A stretch of DNA of 40,694 bases from Rozella allomycis CSF55 (lineage: Eukaryota): NCBI GenBank assembly GCA_000442015.1, contig KE560844.1:1-40694 (forward strand). Direction: 5' to 3'. Position numbers and translations under genes: made by a program. This document shows, piece after piece, positions 1 to 31,180 of this stretch. The notes below the pieces were generated by a model, which saw only the letters and a program-made list of their open reading frames with translations, had not been told where the DNA came from and made no database searches. Position 1 is the stretch's first letter. Each line of letters begins with the position of its first letter.

Positions 1-2847
1 ATTTAATTGCTGCTTCTCTAACTCCATGCTTTTTGGCAAAGATCTACAACTAAAACTATGTTAAGGTTACGTTGAAAACATTCTTTGGTTTCTCTTCTAC
101 TACAGTTTTTTTAATTTTAGAGTCGAAGGATTTAAATATATCGGCAGCACTGCTTGTTTGTCTCGAATTAGGAACAGAAAAAGACAAGGCAGAACCACTG
201 GCTCTGGAATTTGATGTCTTTATTTCATTATTTGTATTGGCTGTGTTAGTAGGATGGTTTAATCTTCTTGGATTCTCTTCTTTGTTGGAATCATCAATTA
301 ATGAGAATGATCGTTTCATAAACATTGGATCTGAAGGTGCTCTGACGATAAATGAATTCTTATTAAAGAAAAGCAAAGAAAATACTTTTAATGAAGGATC
401 CTTTTGTATCTTAAAAAAATTTACAAGTTGCGTTTGTGCTAATCCAAAACTATTAAAAACTTTAGTGAACGGTCTAATCCATTTTGAAAAATTGTTTCTT
501 GTATTATTTCTTTGGAATCTTTCATCACACAAAATGACAGCGCCATAATCATTTTTGTGACGAATGACTCTTCCTATAGCTTGATTCACAGCCCTTGATG
601 CTTGTTGGTGATACCATTCATTTCCATTTAAACACATTGCATTAGCTTTCTTTTTTACTTCTTCATCCATAAAGTTTTTTTTCAATGTAATTCTAGGGTC
701 TAACATTGGGGGATATGGAATTCCTGTAATGATAACAGCGCGGGCTTTGGCATCTGAAAAATCAATTCCCTCGGAAATCTTATAATAAGATTTATCATAA
801 TAATTTACTTTTCCTCTACAAACTCCAAAATACATTGCCCCTGTCAATTCACTTGTTTTAAAATCTATTGCTTCATAATATTCTTTCATTGACTTTGAAA
901 AGAGTAAAAATGACTTACTTCAATAAATTCATTTCTATCTTTTGGTTCAATCACAATCTTTTTGTATTGATTCATTCTACTCCAAACAGATTGTCTAGAT
1001 CCCTTTAATTACCCAAAATAAATAATCTTTTACTTTAATCTTTTTCCATTCATTACAAGCTGCTTCCATTGTAGAATAAGATGGGAAAAACACTAGAATA
1101 CCATCAGGAACAATTCTGCAAAAATTAACCAAAGAATCTCCTAAATCCAATAAATATTCTGAGTTTGTTCTATTTTGATATGACGATGATAATGGAATGC
1201 CCTTTGGCCCAACTGTCAATATACCAACATACAATTGTTCAGGTGGAATCACATGTGGATTTTCTAACACTTGTCCGAATTCCCTGCATTATAATCATAA
1301 ATATATTTTACAAAAGAAAATCTGAAGCAAAAGATTTGATTGGTGATAAAGTTCCACTGGTAAGAATCAAATTTCTAACTCCTTCTTCAAGTAAATCTTT
1401 CAATGCCATTCCTGGACAGAAACACCACAAATTTAATGATTTAGCTTTATCTAATTCAATTAGTTGACACCAAATTACTTCCTTTCATTCCTTTCTTTGT
1501 TACTTGTTCTGTAACTTGTATATGCGTTCGATAATATCTTTGAATATTCTCCATGTGTTTCACTTGTGTTCCAGTTGCTGACGCATAAAGGATCTTCAAT
1601 GCTTCTTCAAACTCTCTTAAACTAGCTTTCTTCTCAATGTTATGGTCAAATGCATCTTTATTCAACATTTAAAATCAAATTACATTGTTCCAAAATCTCA
1701 CATGCATTTCCAACAAGTGGTAATAGATGAGTAGCCACTTGTAGATCTATACCGCACTGTGTGAAAAATGTATAGATAAAGGATCCAGATTCTGATCGAC
1801 CTTTTGATGTGTCTTGGATCGGCATATCCATCAACTTCCTTTCCATAGTAGTCAACAAGGATCGCATTAAAGAAATATCTTCATCCGCTATACTTTGATC
1901 CTCATTATTATTCTTTTTCTTTTTGAAAAAATCTTTCTCTATCGATTTTTTACCATTTGAATATTGCTTTATAGCTCTACTTAAAATATTCATTTCATCA
2001 ATCGCCAACCCCAAATCAACACTGGTGAGTTCAAACGATTTACTTTCACTACAAAAATTTTCCAAATTATGAGCTTCATCAAATATTATTATAGAATCTT
2101 TAACATCAACCTTTTGAAATGTTCTTGCATCTCGATCAATCAAATAATTGTAAGGGACAACTAAAAAATCACTATTATCTTGATCACATCTAGACAAATA
2201 ATATGGGCAGGCATGATTCTCAAGTGATAACGAAGCTATTTCTTCTATATCCATCACTGTCCCTTTAAACTTTGACTCGCAAGCGCTCATGTTCTTATGA
2301 AACTCGCAATTTCCCTTTCTTGCAAGCTTTCTACAAACAGCCGTCTTTGCAGTATTAGTCGATACTTTTTGCACATCAGGATGAAGACACATATGATCTC
2401 TAGAGGCCAGCGTTGTTACTTTCGGACTAGAAATCGCAAATGATTATACTTACTTGTATTTCGACTTTTTCAACTCTTTCACCACCTGTGATAACTGTGA
2501 ATGTGTTCTTGATGCAAATATAATTTTCGGCAGTCGCACTCTAACCTCGTCCGAATCTCCATCCGGCATTCTATCGCCCATATCCTTCATGACATTCTTG
2601 AATTCATGTGCCCTCCAGGCAAGAGTAGCACAAAGCAGACACAATGTTTTACCAGTTCCTGCAACAAAATATTTTTTTGCTGTTACCTGTTGGTGATTCC
2701 AAAAGTGCATGTTCGCGCTAATTTTTTAAATAGAATAATCAATACCTGTTGCAAAGATGCGATCACTTTTTCCATAAATACTAACTGGCAGTCATATGCT
2801 TCGTATGGGAAGTCAACGTCGATCCCTCTGATCTTGTACGTCGGCAT
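1..2847 (-). CDS. RTEL1: Regulator of telomere elongation helicase 1 (XPD/DinG-family Fe-S helicase); 3' end runs off the window
   Basis: The spliced reading gives [29 protein letters not shown] (Walker A), [37 protein letters not shown] and [19 protein letters not shown]. About 10 GT-AG introns of 26-31 nt (e.g. 2718-2745, 2659-2686, 2427-2453, 1656-1683, 1451-1478, 1284-1311, 1003-1033, 893-918, 779-808). FANCJ is the less likely paralog. Confidence 0.88.
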
Positions 2848-2945
2848 TCCTGAAAAATACAAAACGTAAAGGGCGGCATCTTGTGTTGCGACAGATACGT
2901 TATACATTATTGGAATCTCAGAGCAGAGGACAGAATATTAATTTA

Positions 2946-4314
2946 TTAAATATTTGCAACTTTAGGAATCAAAATTTTATAAAAGTCGATCCCTTCAAAG
3001 AAAACAGCCTCATTAATGAACTCATTGTAGTCATGTAAAAGAATAGGCGTATTTCGCATGGGAGATACATTGTAAGCGAGAATTCCCTTTCGTCTAACAA
3101 ATCTGGAATCGGTCGCCCCGCGAAATATGTCCAACTCATATTCAATACCCATCTCCTTGAAAGTTTGATCAATGCATCCAAAAAATGGACCAGTAATTGG
3201 CGAAGTAGTTCCATCCATCCATTTGTTTATAAACTCTACTTTTACGCTTTAAAAACTATATCAAACATTTACTTGTAAGGTTTTGTCCATGTCTCAACAA
3301 GTGCTTCAAAGTTCACTTTATTCACGTTTGGAGGAAGGCGAATATCAATACCTTGATTACTTTAGCATTGATTTTTTTACGTGCTTCAACTACATCTGGC
3401 ACGATGTTAGTTTGATATCCGCCATTGAGCATCGTTATATTACATGTTGGCGTCTCACCGACGCTTTTTCCATGAATGGTTGATTCTTCAATCATCCTCT
3501 TGCTGAATGTTTTAAAATGATCAAGACAATCAAGCTAGTAAAAGCAATACAATCTAAAATACCATATTTGTCATTGCACTGTTAATTATAAACTGCGAGC
3601 CATGTGCCATTTGACCGTTCGCTGTCAATTTTAACCACCAAGGAGCTCTTTCTCCATAGAAGACTGTAATAGAATTTTTTGGTGATGCTAGGCCTTCATC
3701 AAACAAAACATCGATTCCTAAATTTTTAAAAGCGCCGGTTTCTGCGAAACAACTCATGCCATCTTCCCCGCCAATTTCTTCATCTGGAACGAATTGAGTA
3801 AAATATAATACCAGGAAGAAACATAAAATGAATTGTCCTGGACATGCTTTGATTTGCTTTCTTTAGAATTCTGATCGCTTCGTAAGACCTAGTAATATTA
3901 ATTGATATGTTGGCTACATCATGCCAATTGATTTCATATCCTGCGCCCCTCGGGCAACAATGTCACCATTTTCAAATTTTTTAGCTTCAAATGGTCCTGA
4001 TTTCCACTTTTTAATGTCGCCCACAGGTACAACGTCCATATGACAGGAGAATGCGATTGCGCCTTTGTTCGAATCAGTACCTGGTAGTGTAGCAACAAAA
4101 ACTGGTTTGTTATTCTTGTTAAATACTCTTTTCAATAATACCTGAATTCTGAAAATTTGAAAGGAAACTTGAATATCATGAAATATCTATGACTAGCATA
4201 ATTATTGTTTACTTTTGTTAGAAATTCTATGCATGATTCATAGTTTGGATCTGGGTGAGAGGTGTTGATTCTTAAAAATTGCTGCAATCTATGAATCGAA
4301 TCAGCCTCTGTCAT
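2946..4314 (-). CDS. ACY1: Aminoacylase-1 (M20 family)
   Basis: LQQFLRINTSHPDPNY, SCHMDVVP, ARGAQDMKSIG, PDEEIGGEDGM, DEGLAS, FYGERAPWW, GATDSRFVR, TPILLHDYNEF; 7 short introns. Confidence 0.92.
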
Positions 4315-4331
4315 TTTAGAAATTTCCAAAG

Positions 4332-6553
4332 ATGGGTGTCACACTGACTCCACCGTTCGTGCAGCAGTTGGCAGTGTTTGCATTGTACGAAGACTGGAAA
4401 AATTGTGAGTCCTTACTGGACAAAGTTCCTGAAATCGAAAGAAATGTTTCATTTCGACTGACATTGAAATCATCGTCAACGACACTGACCCAGCACTTGA
4501 TCTCTTGTGGGGTTTCCAATAAAATCATAAGTATATTAGAAAAATACCACATAAATGTATTGAATCGTGATGAAAACGGAAACTCATGTCTGCACACGGC
4601 TGCCAAACTAAACGCTATCGACTGGTTGGACATGCTCTGCGAAAAGTATCCAGACATGATTAATGATAACGCTAATGCAAATAGTTGGACTCCTTTGTTT
4701 TTTGCTGGTAACATAAACGTTTTATGTAAAGGCGATAGCAATGCAAGGGCATCGAAAATGCATCGAATTGTTATTATCGAAAAACGCAAAAGTGAATGAA
4801 GTTGATAAATCTGGATGGTCCGCGTTTGAGCATGCTCTTTATCATGGCCATAAGAACTTGTCGGATTTATTATCTCACAAATCGGAGCTTAAAGAGATAC
4901 CATCCAACAATTTAACAGTGAAGAAAATAAGCGAGGAAAAAGAAAAGAATCTCAATTGGCTTAAAAATGAAATTCTTATTAGGATTTCATTCGGATGGCA
5001 TCTAATAAGAACGTCAAAAACTCATTTCACATGGAAGGAGAAAATGTTCATGGGTCTGCCGCCGAAAGAGGTAGCAATCGCTATATCTTCAGATGATGAT
5101 ATTAAAATCGATCAACAAGACATTCTTTTAGTTGAAGGCTCGTATGAATCTATACATTTGCGAATCCCGGTCCCAGCGAATGTCGATAATTGGTGGTCAA
5201 TGATCCCTTCTATGGCCGATTCATTTTTGAAATTCAATTTCTTCTCCAATGGAAAGAAAATCGGATATTCTTTAGTCTCTTTGGCCGCACTGGTGGCGAA
5301 CCCTGTGTCTTTTCGTAACATGGGAATGTGCGACAATATTAACGAGATGACCGACTTGATTCCCAAGTTTAATTCTTTGTCTGCCACTTTTCCGACAAGT
5401 CACACCATTATCAACAATGAATCTTTACCTATTGGCCTTCTTCATCTCGAAAGTTTGATCGTATCACCATTCAGTCATCAAAATATTATGATGGATAATA
5501 TATTTTGGAAATCAATTAAAACATTTGTAGGATGAATTTATGTATTTATAATTAGGTTATTGGTCATAGAGGTGCTGGTGCTAATAATGGATTGAAACAC
5601 CCTTCCGTCGGTGAAAACACTATACTTTCATTTGTCACTGCTGCATCCCTTGGAGCTGAATATGTGGAGTTTGGTACGGTCTTTTTCTAGTGTTAAATAG
5701 ATGTCCAATTAACGAAGGACTTAATACCAGTCATTTACCATGATTGGGTCATCTCGGAAACCGGTGTAGATTTAACGCTTCCCAATGCTTCGTTAAAGCA
5801 ATTCAAAGAGATAAAAAAGGTAATTCATTTATTTACAAAATAAAAGAAAATCATCGAAAGAGAAAAGAGGGAATCTAGGTTGAGAAGGTCGGCCAGTTTT
5901 GCGGCAAATGCCAGGAATGACAACAATGACGATGAAGAACCCGTACAAGCACTAAAGAAGCCCACTAGATTTGTTATTGGGGATGGATTCACAACTCTAA
6001 AAGAAACATTTCAGGTATCCAAAACATATACGCTTAACAGAAATCTCCACCAACAATTGGGTTTAACATTGAAGTGAAATATCCGACTTTAGACGAATGC
6101 GAACAATATAATTTACAGCCAGAAGAAATTAATGTATATGTCGATAAAGTTTTGGAGTGTGTGTTCGACAATGCCCAAGACCGCCAGCTTTTCTTTTCAT
6201 CGTTTCATCCAGATATATGTTATGCCCTCAGTCTCAAACAACCAATCTATCCGGTCTTTCTATTGACTGAAGCTGGCACAGGAAAGGTAATAGACCCTCG
6301 CTGCAATTCAATTTTTGCTGCTGTGGAATTCGCGCAAAAGCATAATTTACTTGGTATTGTTAGTGAATCGTCGCCTTTACTTGAAGCACCGCATTTGATT
6401 AATGCGGTAAAAGAGAATGGTTTATTGTTGTTTACATATGGAAAAATGAACAATGATGTGGTGTCTGTGAGAATACAAAAAATGCATGGGGTAGATGCTG
6501 TCATTGTAGATTCTTTAGCGAGAATTCGTAAAAGCCTGACTTCTGATTTATGA
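4332..6553 (+). CDS. GDE1: Glycerophosphocholine phosphodiesterase Gde1-like (ankyrin repeats + GDPD; no SPX domain seen)
   Basis: Ankyrin motifs (GNSCLHTAA, WTPLFFAAMQGH), VIGHRGAG, GENTILSFVTAASLGAEYVEFDVQL, GFNIEVKYP, FFSSFHPD, GVDAVIVD; introns 4708-4738, 5527-5555, 5674-5700, 5820-5846, 6015-6040. Confidence 0.9.
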
Positions 6554-6599
6554 ATGAACTTAAATAAAATATAAATTTCCTATCATTTTGTTTGTTTTA

Positions 6600-7602
6600 T
6601 TAAAGGGCTGAAGCGCCTGTAATAATATCCACAAGCTCATTTGTAATGACAGACTGGCGAGTGCGATTAAACTTCATAGTCAGGTTATCAATGATCTCAC
6701 CTTTATAATATTTAGAAAACATAATGTACCAGCATTTTTTGTAGCGTTCTCCATTGCTGTTCTTCTTGCCGACATTTCGGAGGCATGAGTCTCAATCATA
6801 GCCCAGTAAATAGAACTGGCAGTAAGAAATTGGGTGTAATCAATTACTGACTCTGGATCATCAATTTCATAGTCTGATATTTTAGCTATAATATTAGTGA
6901 CATTGTAATACCTGAATTTGCAAGGTCGGCACTAGTAAAAACAGGAAGTGTCAATGTGTCATAAGCTATAACACTCTTAAATCTATTATAAATAATGCCT
7001 AGTTTGTCATAGGAACTATTAGTCTTAAAAATGAGTTGAGTAACCAACAGAGCATCAGTGAATGTTGGAATAGTCTTTCCGATTTGATTAAAGGAGGCCA
7101 GAATATTTTTACGTGCATCTCTCGAAATTTGAGCCTTAGCTTTATCACCTAAGACTATAATTTTTGTTGATGGATGTATTTTGATTTGTTTTTTTGCCAT
7201 TTTTGAAACGGAGGAGTGAATTGCACCGCATAAGCCGCGATCCGATGAAACAACTACAAGGACTTGATTATTACTATCCTTAATTTGTTTGGAATCTATA
7301 AACGACCCAAAACCTGATTAAATATATGGCCTATCAAGATTACGCGTACAGCTTGTTCCAAAAACCCTGCCTTTTTCCATAGCTTTTTGGGCTCTAGATA
7401 ACTTTGTGGATGCAATCATCTTCATTGACTGGGTGATTTTTGATATATTTTTAATGGATTTAAGGCGCATTGAAACTAGTGTGGACATATATATTAAAAT
7501 GTACTATCTTTCAAGGTTGCAAAACCACGCACACCGTATACCCTGTTATGATCCATGAATGTACATTAATTACTTCGATGATACTATAGGAGAAATGAGC
7601 AT
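6600..7602 (-). CDS. ATP3: Mitochondrial F1 ATP synthase gamma subunit
   Basis: Spliced: [98 protein letters not shown]; 5 introns. Confidence 0.96.
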
Positions 7603-7619
7603 GGTTTGTACCCTGGTCA

Positions 7620-8559
7620 ATGGGAATTAGCCAAACAGAAAAAGATTTTATTAAAAAAGGTGTTCTCTCCGATATTCGCACTGATGGTAGGACGCGAAAA
7701 AAGGCAAGAGAATTTAATGTTGACATAAATCCTCTGCCTCAGGCATCTGGAAGTGCGAGAGTGATGATGGACATGACCGATATTGTAGTGGGAGTAAAAA
7801 TAGACTTGTCATCTCCAAAAATTGATTCTCCAAATCAAGGATACGTATCCGTCAGCGTTGACTGGTATATCTTTTAGGTTTATAGAATAGTGCATCTTCA
7901 GCCTTCGAAACATTAGATCCTTCATATGATCCCCAAAATATTTCTACAGATCTTTCCAGATATTTAACTAATATTCTCATGACTAAAGAATGCATAAATT
8001 TAAAAAAGCTTTGCATAATTCCTCGTCAACAATGCTGGGTTCTTTACGTTGATGTCTTGTTGTTAAGTTATGGGGGAAATATTCATGATTCTGCCCTGTT
8101 AGCTTTGAGATATTCTTTGGAAAACGCTAAAATACCTTCAGTAAAATTTGGAGATGATGGAATGGCTTTTGAAATATCAAACGACATAGATTCGTATGAG
8201 TCAATTGAAATAGATGGTGTTCCCCTCTCCTTCACTTTTGCTCAAGTAACAAGTGGACGAATTTTGATATAGATTGGCGATGGAATTGTAATTGATCCAT
8301 CTGTGGCTGAAGAATTAGCCGCCCAGACTTGTTTGTCCATCGCTATAAATCGCCGGAACCAGGTTGTGTATATGCAATCGAGAGGACGAGGTTCTATCAA
8401 GCATAATATTTTGCTCGACATTATGAAGGTTTTTATGTAACTTATATTTTACATTAGGCTGCACAGAATAACGCTATTGAAACCTTCAATAATTACAAAA
8501 ATACATTAGCAGAGTCCAAAAATAGAAAATCTGTTGGATTTTTGGCAGTTGGTGTATAA
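7620..8559 (+). CDS. RRP42: Exosome complex component Rrp42 (EXOSC7)
   Basis: MGISQTEKDFIKKGV..RTDGR, PQASGSARV, LCIIPRQQCWVLYVDVLLLSYGGNIHD, IDPSVAEE; 3 introns. Confidence 0.92.
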
Positions 8560-8565
8560 ATTTTA

Positions 8566-10677
8566 TTAATTCCAGAGTTGTATTGTTCCTTCCGATCCCC
8601 CAGTCGCCAAAATGTCTGTTTTGATATCGATGGCAACCGACTGACACGATTTTTGTGCGCCTTTTAAAGTGTTTAGAACTTCATCTTTCTCGTAATTGTA
8701 GCTTTTTATCATAATAACTATTTTTACAGTTTGCAATCTCCATTAGCTTGAGCTAAAGCAATTGTTGTACCTCTTGCATCTAGTACAACCTTCTGAACAG
8801 AAGATGGGCCAAAATTATTTGTTTTAAGCTCTCGTGTGTTTCTTGTATCCCAGACTTTTACCACACCATCCAAATCACATGAAACAAACAATGTTCCCTA
8901 GATAGTAAAATGTATATGTTTTACCGATAGCGAAAACGACCCATGAACTACCGCATTCATATGCCCATACAATGATTGAGTACAAATGCCAGTTCTTGCA
9001 TCCCATTGTGAGATTGTTCGATCTCCTGAGCAACTCCATAGAAGGTTTGTGTAAGGCTTGAATGTGACAAAATTTACACTATCAGCGTGGCCCCGAAAAG
9101 TTAGTTTTGATTTACCACTAATATATTTCTACGTGATGCTTTACGTTCTTAAATCAAACAGGCGGGCAGTTTGATCCATAGAGCCAGAAGCAAGAAAATC
9201 ACCTAAGTCGTGAAATGCACAAGTCCAGACAGGTTGTGTATGATCTTTTAATTGCCTGACAGTTTGCCCATTATCAATGTTCCAAAGGCGAATCGTGCCA
9301 TCACCCGAACTAGTGGCAATCAAATTTTCTCTTCTCTTATGGGCATTAAAGAAATTACTTTGGATGAAAGTCGGAGTCCGCTACCCAATCCTTATGACCA
9401 TTTCCTGTTCTAATATGCTCCCCACTTGGTACGCTCCAAAGTTTCCATGTTCGGTCATCGGATGTAGACAAAAGCAAATTTTTGCTAGGAGAAAATTTAA
9501 GTCATTTATTAGATTTGGATATAATTTACGAGCTTACAGCCATAGAATGCGCTTTAATGCTAAGACCAGCCTTGTAGCTTAGTGCTTTACTTGAGAGTGA
9601 AGTCAATTTTTCACTGTTTTCTGCAAAAGGATTATTTCTATCTTCATTGGGTAGATAGTTTCCTAATGCTTTATTTGAGCTTAGTTGAACAGATTTTCTA
9701 CCATCATCATTATTTCTGGCAATGTTATCTTTGATGGCATATTTAAACCCATACTTTTAACTTTTTCTTCTATCTTGTTAACTCTGTAGAGCTACGTTTA
9801 TGTGAATAAAGTCTAGTACACTTCCGCTTTTTTCGTCTATCATTTTGTCTCTTTCTAAAGTTATCATAGTCTTTTCTTTCATCAATAATTCATATTTTTG
9901 TTGCCAATGCTTTAAAGTAGGCTCTATTTGCTCTAATTTGTTAGCTAATTTTTTGTAATCGCTCAATAATCGGTTCTTTTCTTGAGCGATTCTCTTGTGG
10001 TGTAATCTGTGGAAGTCTCTTTCTTTTTTAATTTTATAAAAAGTGGATTTGATGTTTCTTTTTTAAATTTACAGGAAAATTACGCGATGCTAGATTTATA
10101 AGCCTGAATTTCTTCTTGCGCTTTATGGAGTTCGGCATTCAAAACAATGTTTTGACTTTGTAAGTCATCTACTTCGGGAAGATCATTCTTTGAGATTTGA
10201 CCTGTTTGAATTTTTTCAAACCATTCGTTCTATCACTGCCTATTTTCAGAATTACTTGAAAAGCATCCAATGAGTTTTCAAGCTCATACTGTATGAAAAA
10301 ATTGCGGATAAAGTCATCCAATGTCTCAGTATATCTCTTAATTTCCGAGGATGCAAAGTTATTTTTTTGGCATCCATCAGACTGAACTTGCTGATCCATA
10401 AAGTTCTTTTGGTGCAACATTTGGACAACCTTATCAAGACTTTCCTCCTCTTCTTCGATATCAGACATGTCTACATCATCAAGTGGAATTTCATGATATT
10501 CGATCTCTTCATCATCTGCGATGTGTAATTCTTTTGTTAAAAGCTCAATTTCTATATGTGCCTTCTAAGACAGTTACTAAGATTAAGGTCCTCACGTTGA
10601 TCCTCGAAAGCCATATCATTATCTAAAAGATAGTTAGAGCTTCTTCTTCTGGAAGATGAACTAGAAACTGCTGCCAT
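8566..10677 (-). CDS. SPAG16: Flagellar central-apparatus WD40 protein SPAG16/PF20
   Basis: DDFIRNFF...LDAFQNEWFE, KKERDFHRLHHKRIAQEKNRL, and seven-blade WD40 with GHKDWVADSDFHP, DHTQPVWTCAFHDLGDFLASGSMD, FRGHADSVN; about 10 introns, one probably GT-TG. Confidence 0.9.
9503..9529 (-). other. Predicted non-canonical GT-TG intron (27 nt) in SPAG16
   Basis: gtaaattatatccaaatctaataaatg; removal gives HSMAVSSLKFSPSKNLLLSTSDDRTWKLW, a complete WD repeat. The next usable AG (45 nt) deletes LKFSPS. Confidence 0.7.
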
Positions 10678-10783
10678 TAAAGTAAAACGTAAACAAACAG
10701 CTTGATACTGGATTTTAAAGAGACGTATTAATAAAATAAAGTGAAACATGTTCGGACATATAAATATAATCCCGAAACATTGT

Positions 10784-13530
10784 TTATTGTTTAAATGTCT
10801 TTATTACGCTTTGACCTCCTACGTATATTTGTTGCAAAGAATCCTATTATCTATAAAAGAATTTTAATTACAGATCCATGCTGCCGAAAAATGATAGGCC
10901 TAATGTGGATGTCCTGGTTAAAATAGTACAACCTTCCTTGGTTAATAAAGCGTCTTCTGATGTCAGAAGGCCTCAGATTCTTGATGGAAAACTTGATGTC
11001 TAAACCATTAAAAATCCCTGGTTTTGAATTTGATTTGCGATTAACCCGACCATTATATGTTTTTGTCTGATCTCGTTGTTGCTCATTTATTCTAAGAAGA
11101 GTGTCAAAGGGTTTAGGCCTTATCACTTTAATATTTTTATATCCCAAGCCTTTTCCTGATACCGAAAAGTTGAGATCTCCATCTCTTATTTTTGAGGTAT
11201 GCATGCCGCTAAGCTTGTTTATTCTTTGCTTATTCTTAAATTCATGTTTTTCTGTTTGGTCTTCAAATTTAAAGTTGAAATCAAAGTCGTGGTGATTAAT
11301 CTCATCAATCTAATATATTTGCATATCCATTTTTACTTGATACGAAACTTTTTTGGCCAATAGGTTCGCATAATTATTGGTACTATTTTGCATTCTTTTA
11401 ATGAAAAAAGGTTGGAGACCGGACTCGTTATTATTTAAGTGTGAGGCCAGTCTAATTGTCTGGGCTGGTGAGAAATGTAGTATTCGGCTTTTGTCAAGGT
11501 CCGATCTACCTGTACGTGGTATTTCAAACTCAAAATCACTGATTTCTAGGTTCTAGTTTTAAAAAAGCCTTACCGGGCTCAACGAAATCTTCCTCATTCA
11601 TTAAAACATAATCTTTTTGTGACTCTAGTCTTGATTTCGGCTTTATTCCATGTTTTTCAAGAAGTCCAGAGATAGGATATCCCTAGAAAGAAATGTTTTT
11701 GGGGTATACTTGAGATAATAAGTTTGAAATTTGAAGTGCTGTATCTTTCTTTGAAAGAACTTGAAGAATATCTTTGGCGTAGTACTTGTTCGCGCCTATT
11801 AGCCTAAGAACTTCTGATGGCTTAATGTTGTACTATACTGAGAAAATTTAAAGATTACAGTCTCCATATTTCGTATAACGTTGGCTTTATCCAGTTCTTC
11901 TTGGTCCCCAATTATCCCATATGTAGCCAAAGGAGATACTGTGCCTTGAGCGATGTGCCGTTTTAATTCATCTATCTTCACGACTATTAATGTTTTAAAC
12001 ACAAAAGAACTTACTCCTTTTTCTTGGTGACAAGGGTTGCGACGAGAAACTTTGATCAATTAAAGCTGATGAATTTCGAATATCTTCATCATTTCTCTTT
12101 TTGGACTATTTTTAAAGGCTATTGCGTCTTACTCTTTTCAGATTGAATTCATTTTCCTCCAAATCAAGTGCCCCCGTTAAGTTGTAAAATTTCTTTGAGG
12201 CATCTGCTACATTTCCATATGTGGTAATTTCAAATACCTGTTAAAACAAATTGATTTCAATACCATGAGTCTATTAGACGATATGCAGTAGAGGTACATA
12301 TACGGCGTTAGTAAAAGTTTTGTTACAGGCGATGGCACATTTATTTGAAAAATTAACTGCCCTTTTCCAATATCCCAAAATCTACAGGTACAATCTGCGC
12401 TGGAACTGACAAGTAGACTATTTAATAGTATTACTACAGCATACTCTGAATTTATGGTAAACTGAAGGCCAATAACAGGCCCTTCATGGAAAAAAGTATA
12501 TATAAGATCTGCATGATAATTTTGGGGAAAAGTGGTTTCACCTATATATACTTCAGGTTATGCCACATTGAACTCCTCTCTAGTGATGTTTATATATCTA
12601 TGTGCGTTGTTTGACATTTCTGCTTGCTAGTTTTGACGTATTAGTAATATTACTTCCCTGCTACGCTTTATTTCATCAAGAGATTTAGAATACGAAACTG
12701 TGTTCCAAACCTTGCATTGTCCATTGAAATCACCCGTAGCCATTAAAATATTGTGTGATGAAAATGCTATACTACATATGCTGCTTGAATGACAAGATAA
12801 AGTGGTATTTGATTCAATATTTCTACTTATATTTGTAGGAGATATAGTATGTAGTTCAATGCCCTCCTTCCAATTCCAGGTGTGAATGGAACCATCGTCA
12901 CAACCACATGAAATTACATTGAAATTTTCATAGCATATATTAAAGGCACCAATACTAGAGCTATGCCTTAAAAATGAGTGAATGATATCGCCAGAATCCC
13001 AATCCCAAATTAGGATTTTTCCATCAATAGAACTAGAAAATAAGAATCTATCATCATCAGAGAACATGAGAGATAAAACCGGGCCAAGATGACCTGAAAG
13101 TTTTCCACTACTAGTTTCATTGTGTCTTTTACCGAAACCCTTTTTGACTTTCAAAATGCCACAAAATAATTTTCGAATCATTTGAACCAGTAGCTAAAAT
13201 ATCTCCATTGTTTGAAAATTTTATGTCTCTTATAATATCCTTATGAAAAAATGACCCGCTCTTTCCTAAATCACATGTTTTTTGATAAGTTTCTAAATTC
13301 CAAAGAGAAATCCAAGTTTCTGTGGCAAGTGCAAGCCTGTGTAGGTCATAAAAGATATCAAAAGTGAATATTTCAAACTCAGTGGCCAAACAATCATTCA
13401 GAGTGCATGAAATTGGTCTTCGCCCCGGTATCTTTTCTTGATGTCCAATAGAATTATCTATTAGTATAACTTAATATAAAATACCTGTAATTATTATTCA
13501 AATAGTTCTACCCCATAATTTCCAAGGCAT
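10784..13530 (-). CDS. WD40-repeat protein with long uncharacterised C-terminal region; contains an unresolved in-frame TAA at 12558-12560
   Basis: WD repeats (HKDIIRDIKFSNNGDILATGSNDSKIILW, GHLGPVLSLMFSDDDRFLFSSSIDGKILIW, HEGPVIGLQFTINSDLLVSSSADCTCRFW) joined by about 10 short introns; the start codon is inferred. Confidence 0.7.
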
Positions 13531-13562
13531 TTATCCAGTATGAAATATAAACAAAACATACA

Positions 13563-16338
13563 ATGAACGTAAGCAATTCGAATGCTAATTCTAATGCTAA
13601 TGCTGATGCAGCACTTCTTCATAGACTTTTTAAAGAAAACAATGATTTAAGAATCAAAATTCATAACTTTCAACGAGAAGTAAAAGACAAATTTCATATT
13701 TAATATTGCTCTTCAATAAAACAGTTCAATTAGAAAATTTAGAGGATGAATTTAGGATTCTAAAAAAGAGTTATGATGAAAAATCTAACGGAAAACAAAG
13801 CAGTCGAGTAAATAGGACGTTTATGAAATGACTAGCCATCAACAGGACAACAACATAGAATTATTCGCCAGACCTCAAATATGCTTCAGTCAAACAGCGT
13901 ATAAAGGCTAAAAATTACTAACAAGGACATAACAGACAGGCCTAGTAGCGGTCCATCTAGTGAGTCAAATTCAATACAAAAAAAGAATGCTGAAATTTTA
14001 AAACTAACGCAAGAAATAGATATATTGAAAGATGCTAATGAGCAAATGGAAACAACAATCGGTAAAACATTCAGGGATATTATAAAAGAACAACTTCAAG
14101 TCGCCGTGAAAGAATTGGAAAAGGTCAATCTAGATCTTAAAGAACAGGCAATCCAAAGGGAGGATTCTCCCGAAGAAGAAAGTAATTTTTATATATAAAA
14201 AATTTAGGGGTTAAACGAGATGGTGCAAATAATACCCAAAAGTTACTTGATGAAATGAATGATTTAAGAAAAAAGAATAAAGAGAACGAAGAATTCGTGG
14301 AACATCTTAAAGCCCAATTTAAAATTCAGATGGCAGAAAATAACAAAAAGAATAATGATCTTCAGAATCAATTGCAGGGAATAGAGTCTGTATGTCTGAT
14401 TTCATTTTTTTACAACTAGTTAGTAGAAGGGATAAAAAGGGAGTATGATGAATTTCTTGAGGTTACAAAACTTGAAAATGAAGCTCAAAGATCGTTACAA
14501 ACGCAAGAATATGAAAGATTGAAACACGATTACGACATTATAAAGTCAAATTCGTTGAATGAAAAGCGCAAAATCCTGGCTGAATTTCAGAATTTGTTAT
14601 ACACTCTGCAGTCAAATTTTGAAGAGTACAAATCTGCAAGTGAATTCATATTTAATCTGGAGATAACAAAGCTTGAAGAGGAATTAGTAAGCCAAGCATT
14701 ACGATTTGAACAAGAAATGATGTAAATGATATATAAAATGGTAATTTAGTTATCTTGTTCAAGCAAAAGATAAGTTTTACACTGAAATGATGATCGCAAA
14801 AGATGCAAAAATCATGAATTTGGTAGAGGGGTCGGATATGCAATCATTAATTCAGAAACATGAAGTTGACTTGGAAAATCTTCGTAGAGATCATGCGCGT
14901 GAAATGGCAAGAATAAGAGATGAGCGAGAATCAGAGCAAAAAAATCTTGTGGCAAATTTAACGAAAAATAATGCTTCATTGGAGGCTAAATGTGATAAGC
15001 TCCAATCTCAAGTCAAGTCATTGGAGCAAAAAATTCGAGAGTTGGTGAATACCATCGAGGGAAAAAATCGTACTATACACGAAAAGGAAGAATCCAAAAA
15101 GCGGTCTGAAGAAGAATATCAAATAAAGTTGGACATAGCTAATCAAAAGATAGAAACATTGGCTCAGGAAAAAGAACATTTGAGACATAAAATCATAAGA
15201 ATGAGCATGGACGCTAAAGGTGAGGGTGAAAATAACATGGAAAATATGCTCAAAAGAATTACCAGAGTATTTATATCATTCATGAATTATAAGGAAACAT
15301 CTGATTTATATATTCAATATGAAAAAATAATGAAAGAGAATAAAAATGTAGAAGAATTGTGTGCAACCCTAACTAAAAAGCTCAAGGAAAGAGACAGATA
15401 TATAACTTTTCTTGAGCGTGAAGTGCAAAGAAGGAATGACGAAATGTCAAACTTAGTATTTTAATTCTGCGTTGAAAGATAGTCTCAAACTTTTGAACGG
15501 TTTTTACTTTCACGCACTCAACAAAAACGACTGGAATCAAAGTTAAAAGAAGCAAAGAAATCTAAGGATCCCAAAACTGAAAACGAGAAAAATAATACAT
15601 TGTATAACTTAAATATTATTTGAATCAAGGCCTGAACTAAAATTACATTTAGATGCTAACCCGAAACAAGAAGAAATTCCTGTCAGGGTACAAGCTAAAC
15701 TAAAGTTTCAACCACCTAAAGACATCGTAAAATTTTATGGTGGCATTAATCAGAGAAAGCTAAGCGAAGGTACTAAAATAGAAAAACGTACGTTAAGTGT
15801 CGAATTGGAGCAAGGATTCGCGTAACATATATTCATAATTATATTGCAAAGATATCTGAAAAGGTTTAACGCTATTTCTAAAGCCTTAAACACCACCAAT
15901 TTCAAGAGATATGCAATATTGTCTAGCATAGATCCTGAAAATGAGGTATCTGAATCAAAAGTACAAAACCTTTGCCAATTAAATTGAGAAAAAGAACTTC
16001 AATATACTTAATGTCATTGAAGAAAAGAGAAAGAACGGAGAAGAAGTCAAAATTTATGCTGAAAGTGATAACCAATTGGGAGTCCAAGAAATGTCGTCAA
16101 CACTGACTAAATCATTAACAGCCATGATCCATGACCCAGAAAAACATTCTAATTTAGATATCATGCGAGTAAGGTCTATCTACTAATGTAAAAGCCTCTA
16201 CAACATGGAAAAGTGTACACTCCAAAACATATTGTTTCTCCTTTATTACATCCAATGAACCACCAATCCAAGACGCCAGAGACTTTCTTAACTTTGAAAG
16301 GAAATAAAGTCACCTTACCCAATGAAAATCTCAAATAA
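13563..16338 (+). CDS. Long coiled-coil protein of unknown function
   Basis: Continuous E/K/L-rich heptad-like reading after removing about 12 introns of 26-30 nt, the first being GT-TG. Confidence 0.75.
13680..13708 (+). other. Predicted non-canonical GT-TG intron (29 nt)
   Basis: gtaaaagacaaatttcatatttaatattg; joins NFQRE|LFNKTVQLENLEDEF. The unspliced reading stops at TAA, the nearby AGs at 13724 and 13733 give stops, and the first in-frame AG is 65 nt away. Confidence 0.65.
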
Positions 16339-17137
16339 ATGCATCTTTGTATTTTTTATCTTATATCTAATATTTTAGGAACAATCCCATTATTTACCAC
16401 GATTGAATGATGTAAGTAATAAATGGACACCTAAATCTCCGTATCCAAGTATGAGACGATTCTTAAAGCACATGTCAAGATGCGTCATTAATTTTATAAT
16501 ATGGCCATATAGTAAAATAAAGTCTTTTCTTTCTTCAAACACCAAATCACACAGCGTTCAAAGCTCCAGAATAAAAAGCATAGAGTATTTACCGGTACAA
16601 AATATGTCAACAAAAAATTAGGATTACCAGAACGTGAAAGATGAAAAACCGCCCGCTTATCGTGAGACTGTTATGGAATCCTTAGCAGACGTAGGTTTAG
16701 TGACTATAGGTAGTTCAATTTCCAATATTTGAGCTAGATGACTTACCTGTAGGACCAGTACACGAATTTGTCCTTGCATTTGCCGGTAATTTGATGGTAA
16801 AATTTAGAAAGGGAGTATACTAATTCCTATTGTTTCGATCATTGTTATAAGGGTGCTTAACAGATCTCACGCCATGAATTTAGGCTCTATATCAGCCTTG
16901 GGAACGTTTCTTATGATTGTTTCCACATTCCAAGACTCATTAATGGAATACTTTCTGCAATTAGAATCCTATCAAGACATCATGGTTTTAAGAAGAAATT
17001 TGCGGTTAATCAAACTTGTTTTCTTTTTTATATCATTTATGGGATATATTATGACTGTCTATGGTTTTTATACGTATAGACACGCCAGACTGTATGCCAA
17101 GCAATTGGCACAAAACGCATGCGACTATGCAGCTTAG
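16322..17137 (+). CDS. Bsd2/NDFIP-like NEDD4/Rsp5 adaptor membrane protein (start uncertain)
   Basis: Spliced product has LPDY and PPAY (PY motifs), IDDLPVG, LNRSHAMNLGSISALG and three hydrophobic segments, matching the Bsd2/NDFIP layout. Confidence 0.72.
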
Positions 17138-17172
17138 TTAAAAATCAGAAAATAAATAAAATAATTTATATT

Positions 17173-17598
17173 TTAATACTCAGGTTTGAATTGGAACAAT
17201 TTAGCGTTGACCTTTTTCTTATCCTTATTGCCGGTAAGTTCTCTTATCAATCGACGACTCCATTTGGGTCTGAAAAAAGGCATCAATTTTGGCCTTTTAG
17301 GCTTTCTTTTTTTCATGAGTCCTTGAGCAACCTTTGTTTTATATTCTTGAATTCGTTTCCTTCTACTCTGACACAATTTTCACAACAGTATTACTCGAAG
17401 ATATTGGGACCAATAATACGATTTACTTTTTCCTTTTCTTGGTAAAAAGTGTAGTTTCCTCATTTGAATTTGTGGGAATTCAATATTTCTACCTGAATTG
17501 GTGTAGCAAGAGTTAGATATTGAGAAAACAACGGGCCTTTCAGTAAAAAACGATCTTACAAATCCCCCAATCCGAGTTAGGGCTACTTTTCTAAACAT
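17173..17598 (-). CDS. Small highly basic protein with mitochondrial presequence-like N-terminus (possibly mitoribosomal)
   Basis: MFRKVALTRIGGFVRSFF..., one 27-nt GT-AG intron, K/R-rich second exon; no family recognised. Confidence 0.55.
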
Positions 17599-17656
17599 GG
17601 ACATTTTCTGTAATCAGCAATATATCAGTGTCCGAATTTTCTCAATTTCTTACCGG

Positions 17657-17929
17657 ATGGCTGATTCCAAATTGAATACCAATAAGGCTCGATTCAAGCC
17701 ATTAAATAAAGAACAGAGAGATAAATGCTATGAAGCCAAAGACCTATATTTTAAATACTGCAATAGTTATGAAAAAGAAGATTCTGATGATTGTATCAAA
17801 TTAAATGAGCATTTCGCTCAGTCATGTCCAGAATCATGGGTAGTTCATTTTAAAGAGTTAAGAATGAGAGAAGTAGAGTACCAAAAACGATATGATGAAT
17901 ATAAGAAGCAAGGATATAATGTTGAATAA
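17657..17929 (+). CDS. COA6: Cytochrome c oxidase assembly factor 6-like
   Basis: KEQRDKCYEAKDLYFKYC...CIKLNEHFAQSCPESWVVHF (COX6B/COA6 fold, CPxSWVxHF). Confidence 0.8.
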   Translation: MADSKLNTNKARFKPLNKEQRDKCYEAKDLYFKYCNSYEKEDSDDCIKLNEHFAQSCPESWVVHFKELRMREVEYQKRYDEYKKQGYNVE

Positions 17930-17937
17930 ACGTAAAT

Positions 17938-19721
17938 TTATTGGACATCATCAGGCCCAATCATTTTCTCGGGCCTTACATAACGGTCAAACTCTTCAGA
18001 AGTCAGTAGCTTTAAGCTAAGTACAGCCTCTTTCAACGTTGTTCCTTCTTTATGAGCTTTCTTTGCTGCTTTCGCGGCGTCTAAGTTGATGAAAAAGTGG
18101 AATACTACTGTCATATCCAATATAGGGGTTTAATGATGTAACTAACATTAAAGACTCCTTCATGATTGTATTTATTCTTTCTTCATTAGCCTTGATCCCT
18201 ATGACACAATTTTTTCTAAATGATTCACATGCGTCTGTTAATAGTCTGGCAGATTGTAGAAAATTCTTTATTATTACAGGCTTAAAAACATTTAGCTATA
18301 AATTTTTAAAGTTATTATTACTTCAAAGTGACCGTTAGAACCGCTTATTGAAATAGCGGCATTGTTCCCCATAACCTGCGCACAGACCATAGTCATCGCT
18401 TCGCATTGAGTTGGATTAACCTTTAAGATTGATCATGCATTTTTACCTTTCCTGGCATTATTGATGATCCGGGTTCATTTTCAGGCAATAGTAGTTCTCC
18501 AAGACCACATCTTGGTCCTGATCCCAAAAGCCTTATATCATTAGCTATTTTCATCAAAGAAACAGCACAAGTATTAAGCGCTCCATGAGCATGGACTAGA
18601 GCGTCATGGGCAGCGAGTGCTTCAAACTCTAAAATTAGTGAAACGTATATACTTTATTAGCTGCTGGCTTAAACGGCAGTTTAGTTATTTTTCCTATTTC
18701 ATTTGCTATCTCTTCATCAAATCCTTTAAATGTATTAAGTCCCAATTATATTAACATTTTGCACAAAATTACTGTTCCAACAGCAGTGCCACCTTGGGCA
18801 AGTTCCAATAATGCCGGATATACTTGCTCAATTCTATGTATTGACATCTCTAACTGTCTAACGTATCCGCTAAATTCTTGTCCAAGAGTAAGCGGTGTGG
18901 CATCTTGAAGGTGCGTTCTCCCGATTTTTATAATTGAACCGAATCTCTTTACACAATCTTCAAATGCTAATTTCAATTTTTTTAACGAAGGTAATAATTC
19001 ATTATGCAAACTTAAAGCTCCAGCTACGTGCATGACAGTAGGAAATCTGACCTACTAATTGTTATTGTTGATTTACGTATCATTTGATGACTGTGATCGA
19101 TTAACGTGGTCATTTGGGTGTACTGGCTTCTTGCTTCCCAATTCTCCTCCCAAAATTTCAATAGCCCTATTTGAAATAACTTCATTGGCATTCATATTTG
19201 ATTGGGTGCCTGATCCAGTTTGCCAAACAACAAGTGGGAAGTGATCCATTAGTTTTCCTTGGTAAACCTCTTCGGAGGCTTCAATAATCGATTTTCCAAT
19301 ACTTTCATTCAAACCATGATTCATATTAACAATTGCTGCTGCCTTCTTTACAATTCCAAAGGCTCTTATTAATTCTTCCGGCATTCTCTCATTTGGTCCT
19401 CCAATGTCAAAATTTTGGAGACTTCTAAAATTATCTGTATAAGCAAATATGACCTTTGTGTTTGAGCGCCCCAATATTTATCACTTGGCACTTGAATTTC
19501 ACCAAAAGTATCCCTTTCAATCCTAAATGTTGCCTAGTATTAATAACTATTTGATATATACGTAATAACGATGAATAAGACTTATATTGAACTTCGCCCA
19601 TTGTAAATGCTAAGATTAACATCAATATGGGACAACGAGAAGAAATATTGGATTGAAAATCGTTATTATTTAGAATACCTACCTTTGCCTTTGACAACGT
19701 ATGTTGCAGATTCGAGTACAT
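17938..19721 (-). CDS. FUM1: Fumarate hydratase class II, mitochondrial
   Basis: [82 protein letters not shown]; 9 introns including a 73-nt one and a GT-TG one. Confidence 0.97.
18743..18772 (-). other. Predicted non-canonical GT-TG intron (30 nt) in fumarase
   Basis: gtaattttgtgcaaaatgttaatataattg separates GGTAVGT from GLNTFKGF; it contains an in-frame TAA and no AG dinucleotide. Confidence 0.9.
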
Positions 19722-20012
19722 TGGTGGCTTATTCCCAAACAAAATTTGATTAATTCGATAATTCAAATTAGATCAATTTAAGAAGTAATTATATTCTAAT
19801 TATTTAATTTTAGTCCTTAAATATCTATAACTCTGCCCTACATCACTTAACGATTGTAAAGCAACGTTAAATAAGCGACCAAGCTAAGGTAGGCTCTATC
19901 TCATTTTTGGGATTTTACAACGAGAGGATAATTTATGTGTTATCTTGACGACCCCTATTTAAATGACATAATTAGAAATTAAGCCCCCGACAACCATTTT
20001 TTGTTTGTGGAG

Positions 20013-24238: not shown

Positions 24239-24423
24239 CCTGGATGTGGCTTGGTTGCGTGCATTTTAATACAGGGTTTAATAGCAGGCTGGCCATGCTA
24301 ATTTGATAGATTGATTAAATGGGGATTATGGAATTTTAGATGTTGTGTGGAATGTGTAGTTTTTTATGCTGATGATTTGGTTTGTGGTCACATTGTTTTT
24401 GGGGAATGCGCGGGATGTGGCGC

Positions 24424-30400: not shown

Positions 30401-31180
30401 CCAATTCAATCTAATCATCGATTCAATCTACTTTTTGTTTTCTAAAAATCTATTGAATTCTATTAACAATATTACTTTTATTATTCATCAATTATTATCC
30501 AACTGTTTATCCAACAATTACAATTCAAACAACACTTTAAACAATTACAGTTCAAACAATTACAGTTCAAATAATTCAAACAGTTCAAATAATGCAAAGT
30601 TAGCTTTTAGTTGCTTAAGGCTATTGTTTGAAATTTCAAAAATTAAATTAAATGAATCTCAAATTAAATCAGATCTAAATCTCATAAATGATCCTCTAAT
30701 CAAATGTTGCTCAATCTTTGTTCTTTTCCCAAACGATTTCAATGTAATTCATGTCTTAAATCTCTAAATTAGAATTCCTTGAATTCTGCAAACATTTTAA
30801 CTCTTGTAAACCTTTTAAATGATTCTGAATTCTTTTTAAAAGTATTAAACTCTTTTCTTTCTCATGTAGCGATTTATTATACTCGAAATATTCAATTATG
30901 TCAACCAAAACAAACTGTACAGCATATTCGTTAATACTTGTCATCTTTTGGATTTCATTAATTATTTAATTGATAAAGATGACATTCATGCTTTAATTAA
31001 TCATCTACTAGAATTTCAAATGTAATTTTTTAGGTCTCTCATCAAATTAGGTTGGATGAAGCATCTAAAGTTTGTTCAAAGTATTTCAAATCTAAACATC
31101 AAATTAACGTTCCATTAGAAGATTCACTTCAAGTAACAAATTCTTAAATTATTCAATAGAAATTTATATCCCTCCAATAA
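24424..31180 (+). CDS. KNTC1: Kinetochore-associated protein 1 / Rough deal (Rod, RZZ complex)
   Basis: Very large protein with beta-propeller-like N-terminus and helical solenoid; segments DCEVAVSLMISLP, GNDYLRLIKLASIG, WWYHLNVLEIPFD, ISPFDY, KDPWLILNHEL, RIRALFVL resemble Rod/Rod_C. About 17 short introns; interrupted by an assembly duplication at 25247-25769. Confidence 0.72.
25247..25769 (+). repeat. ~261-bp tandem duplication separated by a single N (probable uncollapsed alleles)
   Basis: 25247-25507 repeats at 25509-25769 with about 11 substitutions; N at 25508. Confidence 0.9.
30513..30593 (+). repeat. Imperfect 15-nt coding minisatellite (AACAATTACAGTTCA) encoding an N/S-rich tract
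   Basis: NNYNSNNTLNNYSSNNYSSNNSNSSNN within the Rod ORF. Confidence 0.8.

What the first reader, a model, noticed from the sequence alone, without database searches (positions are those of the whole stretch)
13458..13511. Two back-to-back 27-nt introns with a zero-nucleotide exon (candidate recursive splicing)
On the minus strand: ATG CCT TGG AAA TTA TGG G|gtagaactatttgaataataattacag|gtattttatattaagttatactaatag|AT AAT TCT. Each half is a typical 27-nt GT-AG intron for this genome, joined at a CAG|GTA ratchet-like site. Removing only one half leaves a stop (TAA or TGA). No in-frame ATG exists downstream before the WD repeats, so both must go if this ATG is the start. Recursive splicing is known mainly from very long animal introns; here it could be how a length-restricted spliceosome removes 54 nt.
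Basis: partly seen in the sequence, partly recalled or inferred. Interest (0 to 1): 0.7.

Follow-up and report, generated by a model that had tools for sequence, protein, structure and literature searches.

The report
Two abutting 27-nt introns, candidate
At the start of a WD-repeat gene in a fungal parasite with tiny introns, 54 bases that must be cut out look like two standard 27-base introns placed end to end, but no RNA data could be found to show whether they are removed in one cut or two.

Summary
On the minus strand, ATG 13530 is followed by 19 coding nt. Then come GT..AG 13511-13485 and GT..AG 13484-13458, 27 nt each, joined at CAG|GTA. The WD40 reading frame that follows contains no Met. 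Leaving either half in gives a stop after 10 codons; only removing all 54 nt, or 42 nt, opens the frame. A public model named for Rozella allomycis CSF55 begins MPWKLWDNSIGH, so it removes exactly these 54 nt.

The window's introns are tightly sized: 81 of 83 curated introns are 26-31 nt. In simulation, a random 54-nt intron of this composition has a central AG|GTA in about 0.3% of cases. This is the only tandem pair in the window in which both halves score well.

Two-step removal through a zero-length exon is therefore plausible, and I put it at about 0.5. It is not shown: no RNA run, ortholog or whole genome was available. Zero-length-exon splicing is also already documented in two fungi with short introns. 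I class it as a new member of a known kind, of moderate interest.

The parts
13512..13530 (-). Coding part of exon 1: ATG CCT TGG AAA TTA TGG G (MPWKLW plus the first base of the next codon). The donor is in phase 1.
   Evidence: It is the only ATG whose phase fits the downstream frame after GT..AG removal. The public model P0007 starts MPWKLWD.
13485..13511 (-). 5' half: a 27-nt GT..AG unit, GTAGAAC...TTACAG. If retained, it gives an in-frame TGA.
   Evidence: Its intron-model score is 0.69, the 14.6th percentile of 82 real introns scored leave-one-out. GTAG starts 4 of 83 curated introns and CAG ends 4 of 83.
13458..13484 (-). 3' half: a 27-nt GT..AG unit, GTATTTT...TACTAATAG. If retained, it gives an in-frame TAA.
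   Evidence: Its score is 4.07, the 53.7th percentile of real introns. GTAT starts 16 of 83 curated introns and TAG ends 50 of 83.
13482..13487 (-). CAG|GTA junction: an acceptor directly abutting a donor, i.e. a zero-length exon or ratchet-like site.
   Evidence: A central AG|GTA is expected in 0.29% of random 54-nt introns.
13470..13472 (-). Alternative acceptor AAG. Used with the donor at 13511 it would give an in-frame 42-nt intron (MPWKLWVILIDNS...).
13139..13457 (-). Exon 2: DNSIGHQEK...ESQKG. It has no Met and includes the first WD40 repeat.
   Evidence: Pfam WD40 match, E = 1.1e-6; ORF list; P0007 and P0008.
13111..13138 (-). The next intron: 28 nt (GTTTCGG..CTAG) as used by public model P0008. 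My own first parse was a 22-nt version, 13132-13111.
13563..13565 (+). ATG of the divergent neighbour gene. It lies only 32 nt from the WD gene's ATG, which leaves no room for a further upstream exon of the WD gene.
   Evidence: Another divergent pair in the window (ATGs at 4314 on the minus strand and 4331 on the plus strand) is 16 nt apart.

Best explanation
The 54 nt between the 19-nt first coding exon and the WD40 frame are two complete minimal introns of 27 + 27 nt. They abut with no exon base between them and are excised in two separate splicing reactions.

Either order yields the same mRNA. If the 5' half goes first, exon 1 is joined to GTATTT, which regenerates a donor that is then used with the TACTAATAG acceptor. 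If the 3' half goes first, the 5' half is left as an ordinary intron ending CAG|AT. A transcript that keeps either half carries a stop after 10 codons.

Shown here: the sequence anatomy, the frame logic, and the fit of both halves to this genome's intron size and signals.

Inferred: that splicing occurs at all (from the Met-less WD40 frame and a public gene model), and that it occurs in two steps rather than one.
For: 1. Only removal of all 54 nt, or of 42 nt, opens the frame from the only suitable ATG. Public model P0007 starts MPWKLWDNSIGH, which corresponds to exons 13530-13512 and 13457 onward.

2. Intron size in this window is very narrow. Of 83 curated introns, 63 are 26-28 nt and 81 are 26-31 nt. 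Of 99 introns in the unfiltered parse, 90 are 26-31 nt. Each half is 27 nt.

3. A central AG|GTA splitting a 54-nt intron into intron-sized halves arises in 0.29% of simulated introns, or 0.12% if both halves must score this well. It is the only tandem pair in the window with both halves scoring at least 0.6, out of 43 GT..AG|GT..AG pairs.

4. The halves score at the 14.6th and 53.7th percentile of real introns. Inside 29,474 nt of exons, only 10 of 488 GT..AG 25-31-mers score as high as the weaker half, and 5 of those 10 are in-frame 27-mers that may themselves be introns.

5. In 80 of 82 curated introns there is no AG 25 nt or more from the donor before the acceptor that is used. The 2 exceptions are in-frame alternatives. 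By that pattern the donor at 13511 would pair with the CAG at 27 nt. This set was capped at 31 nt by construction, so the test is weak.

6. From recall, not from a call: when two donors compete for one acceptor, the proximal one tends to win. The inner donor CAG|GTATTT also matches the general U1 consensus at 7 of 9 positions, against 4 of 9 for GGG|GTAGAA.
Against: - There is no RNA evidence of any kind. The mature mRNA is identical after one-step or two-step removal.
- The 5' half is a below-average intron: 15th percentile, with GTAG and CAG each seen in only 4 of 83 curated introns.
- One-piece removal of longer introns appears possible in this genome. Intron 9529-9485 is 45 nt with no internal AG, and the second public model reads AVSS|KNLLL across it. 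The neighbour gene's first intron has no usable AG before 45 nt.
- AG|GTA also occurs at ordinary intron-exon borders, in 2 of 83 introns. One of these is followed by a 31-nt GT..AG stretch (12237-12207) that must remain exon. Looking like an intron is therefore not sufficient for being spliced.
- The public models are predictions and disagree with each other elsewhere in this gene.
Confidence: 0.48

Rival explanations
1. It is one ordinary 54-nt first intron, removed in a single reaction using the donor at 13511, a branch near TACTAAT and the acceptor at 13458. The central CAG|GTA would be incidental, or a relic, for example of a lost micro-exon.
For: - The public annotation necessarily models it as one intron.
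- Longer one-piece introns probably exist in the window: 45 nt at 9529-9485 with no internal AG, and the neighbour's first intron of at least 45 nt.
- In related microsporidia a relatively long intron is spliced better than the short ones (PMC6349667, abstract and passages).
- The intron signals here carry little information, only GTA and AG.
Against: - A central AG|GTA with intron-sized halves is expected in only 0.29% of such introns.
- One-step removal would have to skip an AG at 27 nt and another at 42 nt, and ignore a closer inner donor.
- Introns above 31 nt are at most 4 of 99 in the parse of this window, and 2 of those 4 are probably false joins between genes.
Confidence: 0.28
2. It is a 42-nt intron from donor 13511 to acceptor AAG at 13470, giving MPWKLWVILIDNSIGH... 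The TACTAATAG stretch would then be coding.
For: It is in frame and open. AAG is a common acceptor, ending 27 of 83 curated introns.
Against: - It skips the AG at 27 nt.
- The acceptor context TATATTAAG fits the A-rich -7..-4 pattern less well than ACTAATAG does (by reading).
- The public model uses the acceptor at 13458.
- 42 nt is outside the 26-31 nt range of 81 of 83 curated introns.
Confidence: 0.05
3. The 5' end of the gene model is wrong. The ATG exon would not be used (a non-AUG start, or an exon or assembly error not seen here), or the gene is decaying, and the 54 nt are leader or spacer rather than intron.
For: - The support for exon 1 is only frame logic plus an ab initio style public model that is wrong elsewhere: it stops at GFR* where another model splices.
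- Further down the same gene, 12653-12542 cannot be spliced in frame with standard introns.
- The spacer to the divergent neighbour is only 32 nt.
Against: - Exon 2 is clearly coding (WD40 match; coding score 23.6) and has no Met. This ATG is the only one in the right phase.
- Very short spacers between divergent ATGs are seen elsewhere in this window, e.g. 16 nt at 4314/4331.
Confidence: 0.12

Closest known systems
Zero-length-exon recursive splicing in short-intron fungi: Cryptococcus neoformans BOT1 (375 nt = 210 + 165) and Schizosaccharomyces pombe SPNCRNA.445 (336 nt). Sources: bioRxiv 10.1101/224170 and 10.1101/226894, passages read.
   Same: [quoted passage not shown] Both cases are in fungi that use short introns, and the mature RNA lacks the whole stretch.
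   Different: Those cases were proven with spliceosome-bound intermediates, junctions and branches, and their segments are 165-210 nt. Here each segment is a minimal 27-nt intron, the total is 54 nt, it interrupts a coding frame seven codons in, and no RNA evidence exists.
Drosophila zero-nucleotide ratchet points (Duff et al., bioRxiv 10.1101/006163, passages read).
   Same: A juxtaposed 3'/5' splice site AG|GT, with the donor regenerated after the first step.
   Different: The Drosophila recursive introns are 11,341-132,736 bp with segments of 2,596-63,580 bp, a strong pyrimidine tract, and conservation across species. Here the unit is 54 nt, there is no pyrimidine tract, and conservation could not be tested.
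Stwintrons, the spliceosomal twin introns of filamentous fungi (PMC9024468, PMC5639578; search listing and abstract starts only).
   Same: A complex intervening sequence removed by two consecutive standard splicing reactions.
   Different: In a stwintron the internal intron interrupts the donor, branch or acceptor of the external one, so the order of removal is obligatory. Here the two units merely abut, each is complete on its own, and either order works (by reading).
Extreme micro-exons, e.g. the single-nucleotide exon of Arabidopsis (PMC4674806; title and start of abstract only).
   Same: Two introns separated by almost nothing. This locus would be the zero-nucleotide limit of that series.
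   Different: A 1-nt exon still contributes a base to the mRNA. Here nothing remains.
Genomes with ultra-short introns: myxobolid myxozoans and Dicyema (PMC13644364, main text read without the end of the reference list; PMC6543705, passages) and microsporidia and Rozella (PMC6349667, passages).
   Same: A median intron length near 27 nt, signals reduced to GTA...AG, and weak A-rich stretches before the AG. The window shows the same features.
   Different: None of the passages I read mentions abutting introns. Their supplements, which hold the length distributions, were not available to me.

Membership tests
Zero-nucleotide-exon recursive splicing | An acceptor AG directly followed by a donor GT inside a stretch that is absent from the mature mRNA | tested here: met
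   CAG|GTA at 13485/13484. Absence from the mRNA is inferred from frame logic and from public model P0007, not from RNA.
Zero-nucleotide-exon recursive splicing | Each flanking segment has its own full set of splice signals and a size that the organism's spliceosome handles | tested here: met
   Both halves are 27 nt, and 63 of 83 curated introns are 26-28 nt. Their model scores are at the 14.6th and 53.7th percentile of real introns. Branch sites cannot be called, because no branch motif is conserved here.
Zero-nucleotide-exon recursive splicing | Intermediates: exon 1 joined to the ratchet point, and separate lariats for each segment | not testable with these tools
   No RNA holder was listed. 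The one RNA run with the same species label put nothing on 1-20000 except two pieces of 21 and 24 nt.
Zero-nucleotide-exon recursive splicing | Conservation of the ratchet point in related species | tested here: inconclusive
   No orthologous protein or locus was found. The only hits were generic WD40 proteins and the same organism's own models.
Stwintron | An internal intron interrupts the donor, branch or acceptor of an external intron, so that the external intron exists only after the first excision | tested here: not met
   By reading, both GT..AG units are intact in the primary sequence. Removing 13511-13485 leaves G|GTATTT, which was already a GT donor. No split G|T donor arrangement fits.
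Ordinary single intron from the long tail of the length distribution | No internal functional splice sites; length within what the genome's one-step introns reach | tested here: inconclusive
   One-step introns of 45 nt or more probably exist. However, the internal AG|GTA at exactly the modal spacing is expected in only 0.29% of such introns.

The most novel reading that the evidence does not exclude
In this ultra-short-intron fungus the spliceosome works efficiently only near 26-31 nt. Longer non-coding spacers inside genes would then be tolerated mainly as chains of minimal introns joined at AG|GTA, forming a genome-wide class of 'concatenated introns' removed one unit at a time. That would produce secondary peaks in intron length near 54 nt (and 81 nt), enriched for central AG|GTA. 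This locus would be its first example and the smallest recursive splicing unit known.
Probability: 0.1. Interest if true: 0.75.

Novelty: new member of a known kind. Interest (0 to 1): 0.4.

Why it matters
If the two halves are removed separately, this would be by far the smallest recursively spliced unit. The total is 54 nt, against 336-375 nt in yeasts and more than 11 kb in flies. It would also be the zero-nucleotide end of the micro-exon series.

It would show that a spliceosome tuned to introns of about 27 nt treats two abutting minimal introns as independent substrates. That offers a simple handle on an open question raised in the 2026 paper on ultra-short animal introns (PMC13644364): whether a narrow intron-length distribution reflects a functional length optimum or only deletion pressure.

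It also has a practical side. Gene predictors cannot represent a zero-length exon, and the public models for this very gene disagree with one another.

If it turns out to be a plain 54-nt intron, the finding is ordinary.

Tried and rejected
RNA evidence
- No RNA holder was listed for 12000-14200.
- Laying the single RNA run with the same species label on 1-20000 gave only two pieces of 21 and 24 nt from one contig and no joints.

Genome and earlier notes
- No whole genome is held for this window, so the genome-wide test for a 54-nt peak could not be run.
- Earlier findings of this scan: nothing by place, words or sequence.

Orthologs
- A protein search with exon 2 among longer proteins found only generic WD40 proteins, 6 hits among 52 candidates.
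- The near-length search found only this organism's own two models.
- A metagenome scan matched 159 pattern stretches, none confirmed.

Other ideas tested
- RNA structure bringing the ends together: the 54-mer folds no better than shuffles (z = 0.39; 125 of 200 shuffles fold as well). The 96-nt context reaches z = -1.63, with 12 of 200 shuffles as good.
- Origin by tandem duplication of one intron: the halves are identical at 14 of 27 positions, against about 12.6 expected from composition (my arithmetic). Not supported.
- A stwintron parse and a start codon donated by a spliced leader: both rejected by reading the frames.

My own errors along the way
- My first guess at the organism, a dicyemid or myxozoan, was wrong. 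One search names a fungal parasite.
- My ORF-joining and dynamic-programming parses produced false long introns that in fact contain short exons: 57 nt at 3917-3861, and 118 nt at 13808-13925, which is really 28 nt + a 63-nt exon + 27 nt.
- They also produced false in-frame introns, e.g. 12793-12767. The two 22-nt introns in the curated set are probably longer: 13132-13111 is 28 nt in P0008.

Literature
- Searches for this organism together with recursive splicing terms returned no paper holding both. One search, pairing recursive splicing with short introns and Paramecium, listed nothing on abutting ultra-short introns.
- Supplements were not available to me, including the length distributions in PMC13644364 and Table S7 of PMC8042348.

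Full report
**What is there**

- ATG at 13530, followed by 19 coding nt (MPWKLW plus one G).
- A 27-nt GT..AG unit at 13511-13485 (GTAGAAC..TTACAG).
- Directly abutting it, a second 27-nt unit at 13484-13458 (GTATTTT..TACTAATAG).
- Then AT AAT TCT, continuing into ORF 13132-13470.

That ORF has no methionine, matches Pfam WD40, and has a clear coding score.

With nothing removed, or with either half alone removed, the frame stops after 10 codons. Removing all 54 nt gives MPWKLWDNSIGHQEK.... No other ATG between 13600 and 13132 fits.

**Which organism, and what public models say**

I first took the window for an ultra-short-intron animal parasite. That was wrong. A near-length protein search returned a 106-aa protein that a source names "hypothetical protein O9G_003815 [Rozella allomycis CSF55]". 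Its longest contig is 40,694 nt, the length of this window.

That protein begins MPWKLWDNSIGH. I reproduced it exactly from exons 13530-13512, 13457-13256 and 13228-13132. So a public model removes exactly 13511-13458.

This is supportive but weak. The model stops at GFR*, where a second public model (P0008) splices out a 28-nt intron at 13138-13111. It also removes an in-frame 27-mer (13255-13229) that the second model keeps. These look like predictions, not transcript-based models.

**The intron population of the window**

No genome was available, so I annotated the window myself by ORF joining and a small dynamic-programming parser.

The parser penalises introns shorter than 22 or longer than 31 nt. 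It gave 99 introns, of which 90 are 26-31 nt. A curated subset had flanking exons of at least 45 nt, breaks the frame if retained, and was capped at 22-31 nt by construction. It holds 83 introns:

| Length (nt) | 22 | 26 | 27 | 28 | 29 | 30 | 31 |
|---|---|---|---|---|---|---|---|
| Count | 2 | 23 | 18 | 22 | 10 | 4 | 4 |

. The two 22-mers are probably mis-set; one is 28 nt in P0008.

The signals are minimal:
- GTA starts 82 of 83 introns: GTAA 59, GTAT 16, GTAG 4, GTAC 3.
- The ends are TAG 50, AAG 27, CAG 4, GAG 2.
- There is a weak A-rich stretch at -7 to -4 and no conserved branch motif.

This matches what is written about ultra-short introns elsewhere (PMC13644364) and about introns of about 30 nt in this organism (PMC6349667).

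**Do the halves look like introns?**

Under a position and composition model scored leave-one-out, the 3' half lies at the 53.7th percentile of real introns and the 5' half at the 14.6th. The 5' half has the rarer GTAG start and CAG end.

Inside 29,474 nt of exons there are 488 GT..AG 25-31-mers. Only 10 of them score as high as the weaker half, and 5 of those 10 are in-frame 27-mers that may be unrecognised introns.

**Is the central AG|GTA chance?**

In 200,000 simulated 54-nt introns with this window's intron composition:

| Feature | Frequency |
|---|---|
| Central AGGT with halves of 24-30 nt | 0.98% |
| Central AG\|GTA | 0.29% |
| AG\|GTA with both halves scoring at least 0.69 | 0.12% |
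| Exactly 27+27 | 0.04% |

Scanning both strands gave 43 GT..AG|GT..AG pairs of the right sizes. Three have both scores at least -3, two at least 0, and only this one at least 0.6.

The runner-up is 12263-12207, in the same gene. It is a real 26-nt intron followed by a 31-nt GT..AG stretch that must stay exon, since removing it gives a stop.

AG|GTA at ordinary intron-exon borders is not avoided: 2 of 83 introns are followed by GTA and 6 of 83 by GT. Intron-likeness alone therefore does not prove splicing.

**One step or two?**

The mature mRNA is the same either way, and I found no RNA. No RNA holder was listed, and the one RNA run with the same species label put nothing useful on 1-20000.

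For two steps:
- Each half has modal length and its own signals.
- The central site is very unlikely by chance.
- In 80 of 82 curated introns, no AG lies 25 nt or more from the donor before the acceptor that is used. This is a weak test, because the set was capped at 31 nt.
- From recall: a proximal donor usually beats a distal one for the same acceptor, and the inner donor CAG|GTATTT fits the general U1 consensus better than the outer one.

Against the need for two steps:
- Intron 9529-9485 is 45 nt with no internal AG. The second public model reads AVSS|KNLLL across it. A non-canonical 27-nt GT..TG removal would, however, preserve a better WD blade there.
- The neighbour gene's first intron has no usable AG before 45 nt, and only a 65-nt removal is in frame.
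- In microsporidia, relatives of this organism, a relatively long intron is spliced better than the short ones (PMC6349667).

Other checks:
- No RNA structure brings the ends together.
- The halves are no more alike than chance, 14 of 27 positions, so a recent duplication is not supported.

**Odds**

| Explanation | Probability |
|---|---|
| Two separate excisions | about 0.48 |
| One 54-nt excision | about 0.28 |
| The 42-nt alternative | about 0.05 |
| A wrong 5' gene model | about 0.12 |
| Something else | the remainder |

**Comparison with what is known**

- Recursive splicing through zero-nucleotide exons is established in Drosophila. There the introns are 11,341-132,736 bp (10.1101/006163).
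The S. pombe SPNCRNA.445 intron is 336 nt (10.1101/226894). [quoted passage not shown]
- Stwintrons differ because one intron interrupts a signal of the other (abstracts only). That is not the case here.
- No paper in the library pairs this organism with recursive splicing.

The locus would thus be a new and extreme member of a known kind, with the smallest segments by an order of magnitude. It is not a new mechanism.

**Verdict**

Interest is moderate (0.4). It would rise if RNA data or a genome-wide excess of AG|GTA-centred introns of about 54 nt were shown.

Noticed in passing
window 12653-12542 (minus strand): Within the same WD gene, the stretch after KRSRE cannot be spliced in frame with standard 26-31-nt introns. 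The only in-frame solutions need a 7-nt or 11-12-nt micro-exon plus a 74-nt GT..AG intron (12615-12542) that is not AT-rich. This could be an assembly indel, an unusual intron, or gene decay.
   Followed up: partly
window 9529-9485 (minus strand): A 45-nt GT..AG intron with no internal AG; the second public model (P0009) uses it. Removing the non-canonical 27-mer GT..TG (9529-9503) instead would keep LKFSPS and give a much better WD blade. This suggests a recently lost acceptor, with the splice having moved 18 nt downstream.
   Followed up: partly
window 13680-13744 (plus strand): The first intron of the divergent neighbour gene (ATG at 13563) is also atypical. The first usable AG is 45 nt from the donor but out of frame, and only a 65-nt removal is in frame, which would discard a plausible coiled-coil stretch (VQLENLE).
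   Followed up: partly
window 12444-12418 and 13255-13229 (minus strand); 14062-14088 (plus strand): These are in-frame, stop-free 27-nt GT..AG units inside exons. The WD-blade pattern argues that 12444-12418 is a real intron. The two public models disagree on 13255-13229. Such '3n' introns are invisible to frame-based annotation.
   Followed up: partly
window 4312-4333 and 13528-13565: The start codons of divergent gene pairs are only 16 nt apart (M20 peptidase on the minus strand at 4314, ankyrin/GDPD gene on the plus strand at 4331) and 32 nt apart (WD gene and its neighbour). Promoters and 5' UTRs must therefore overlap the partner gene.
   Followed up: no
window 13475-13482 (plus strand): TATAAAAT lies inside the 3' half of the 54 nt when read on the opposite strand, 81 nt upstream of the neighbour gene's ATG. 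The extra intron length might house the neighbour's core promoter. In DNA this AT-rich, that could easily be chance.
   Followed up: no
window 24000-32000: A large plus-strand gene with KNTC1/Rod matches (about 24376-31144, 18 introns of 26-29 nt) lies in a block of low GC (0.23-0.32) with strong positive GC skew (+0.33 to +0.43). The skew flips to -0.38 where the minus-strand RNA 3'-phosphate cyclase gene begins.
   Followed up: no
window 12263-12207 (minus strand): A real 26-nt intron is directly followed by an exon that begins GTATTTG and reaches an AG 31 nt later, forming a look-alike tandem pair. Its second unit must not be spliced, because removing it gives a stop. It is a natural negative control for the finding.
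   Followed up: yes
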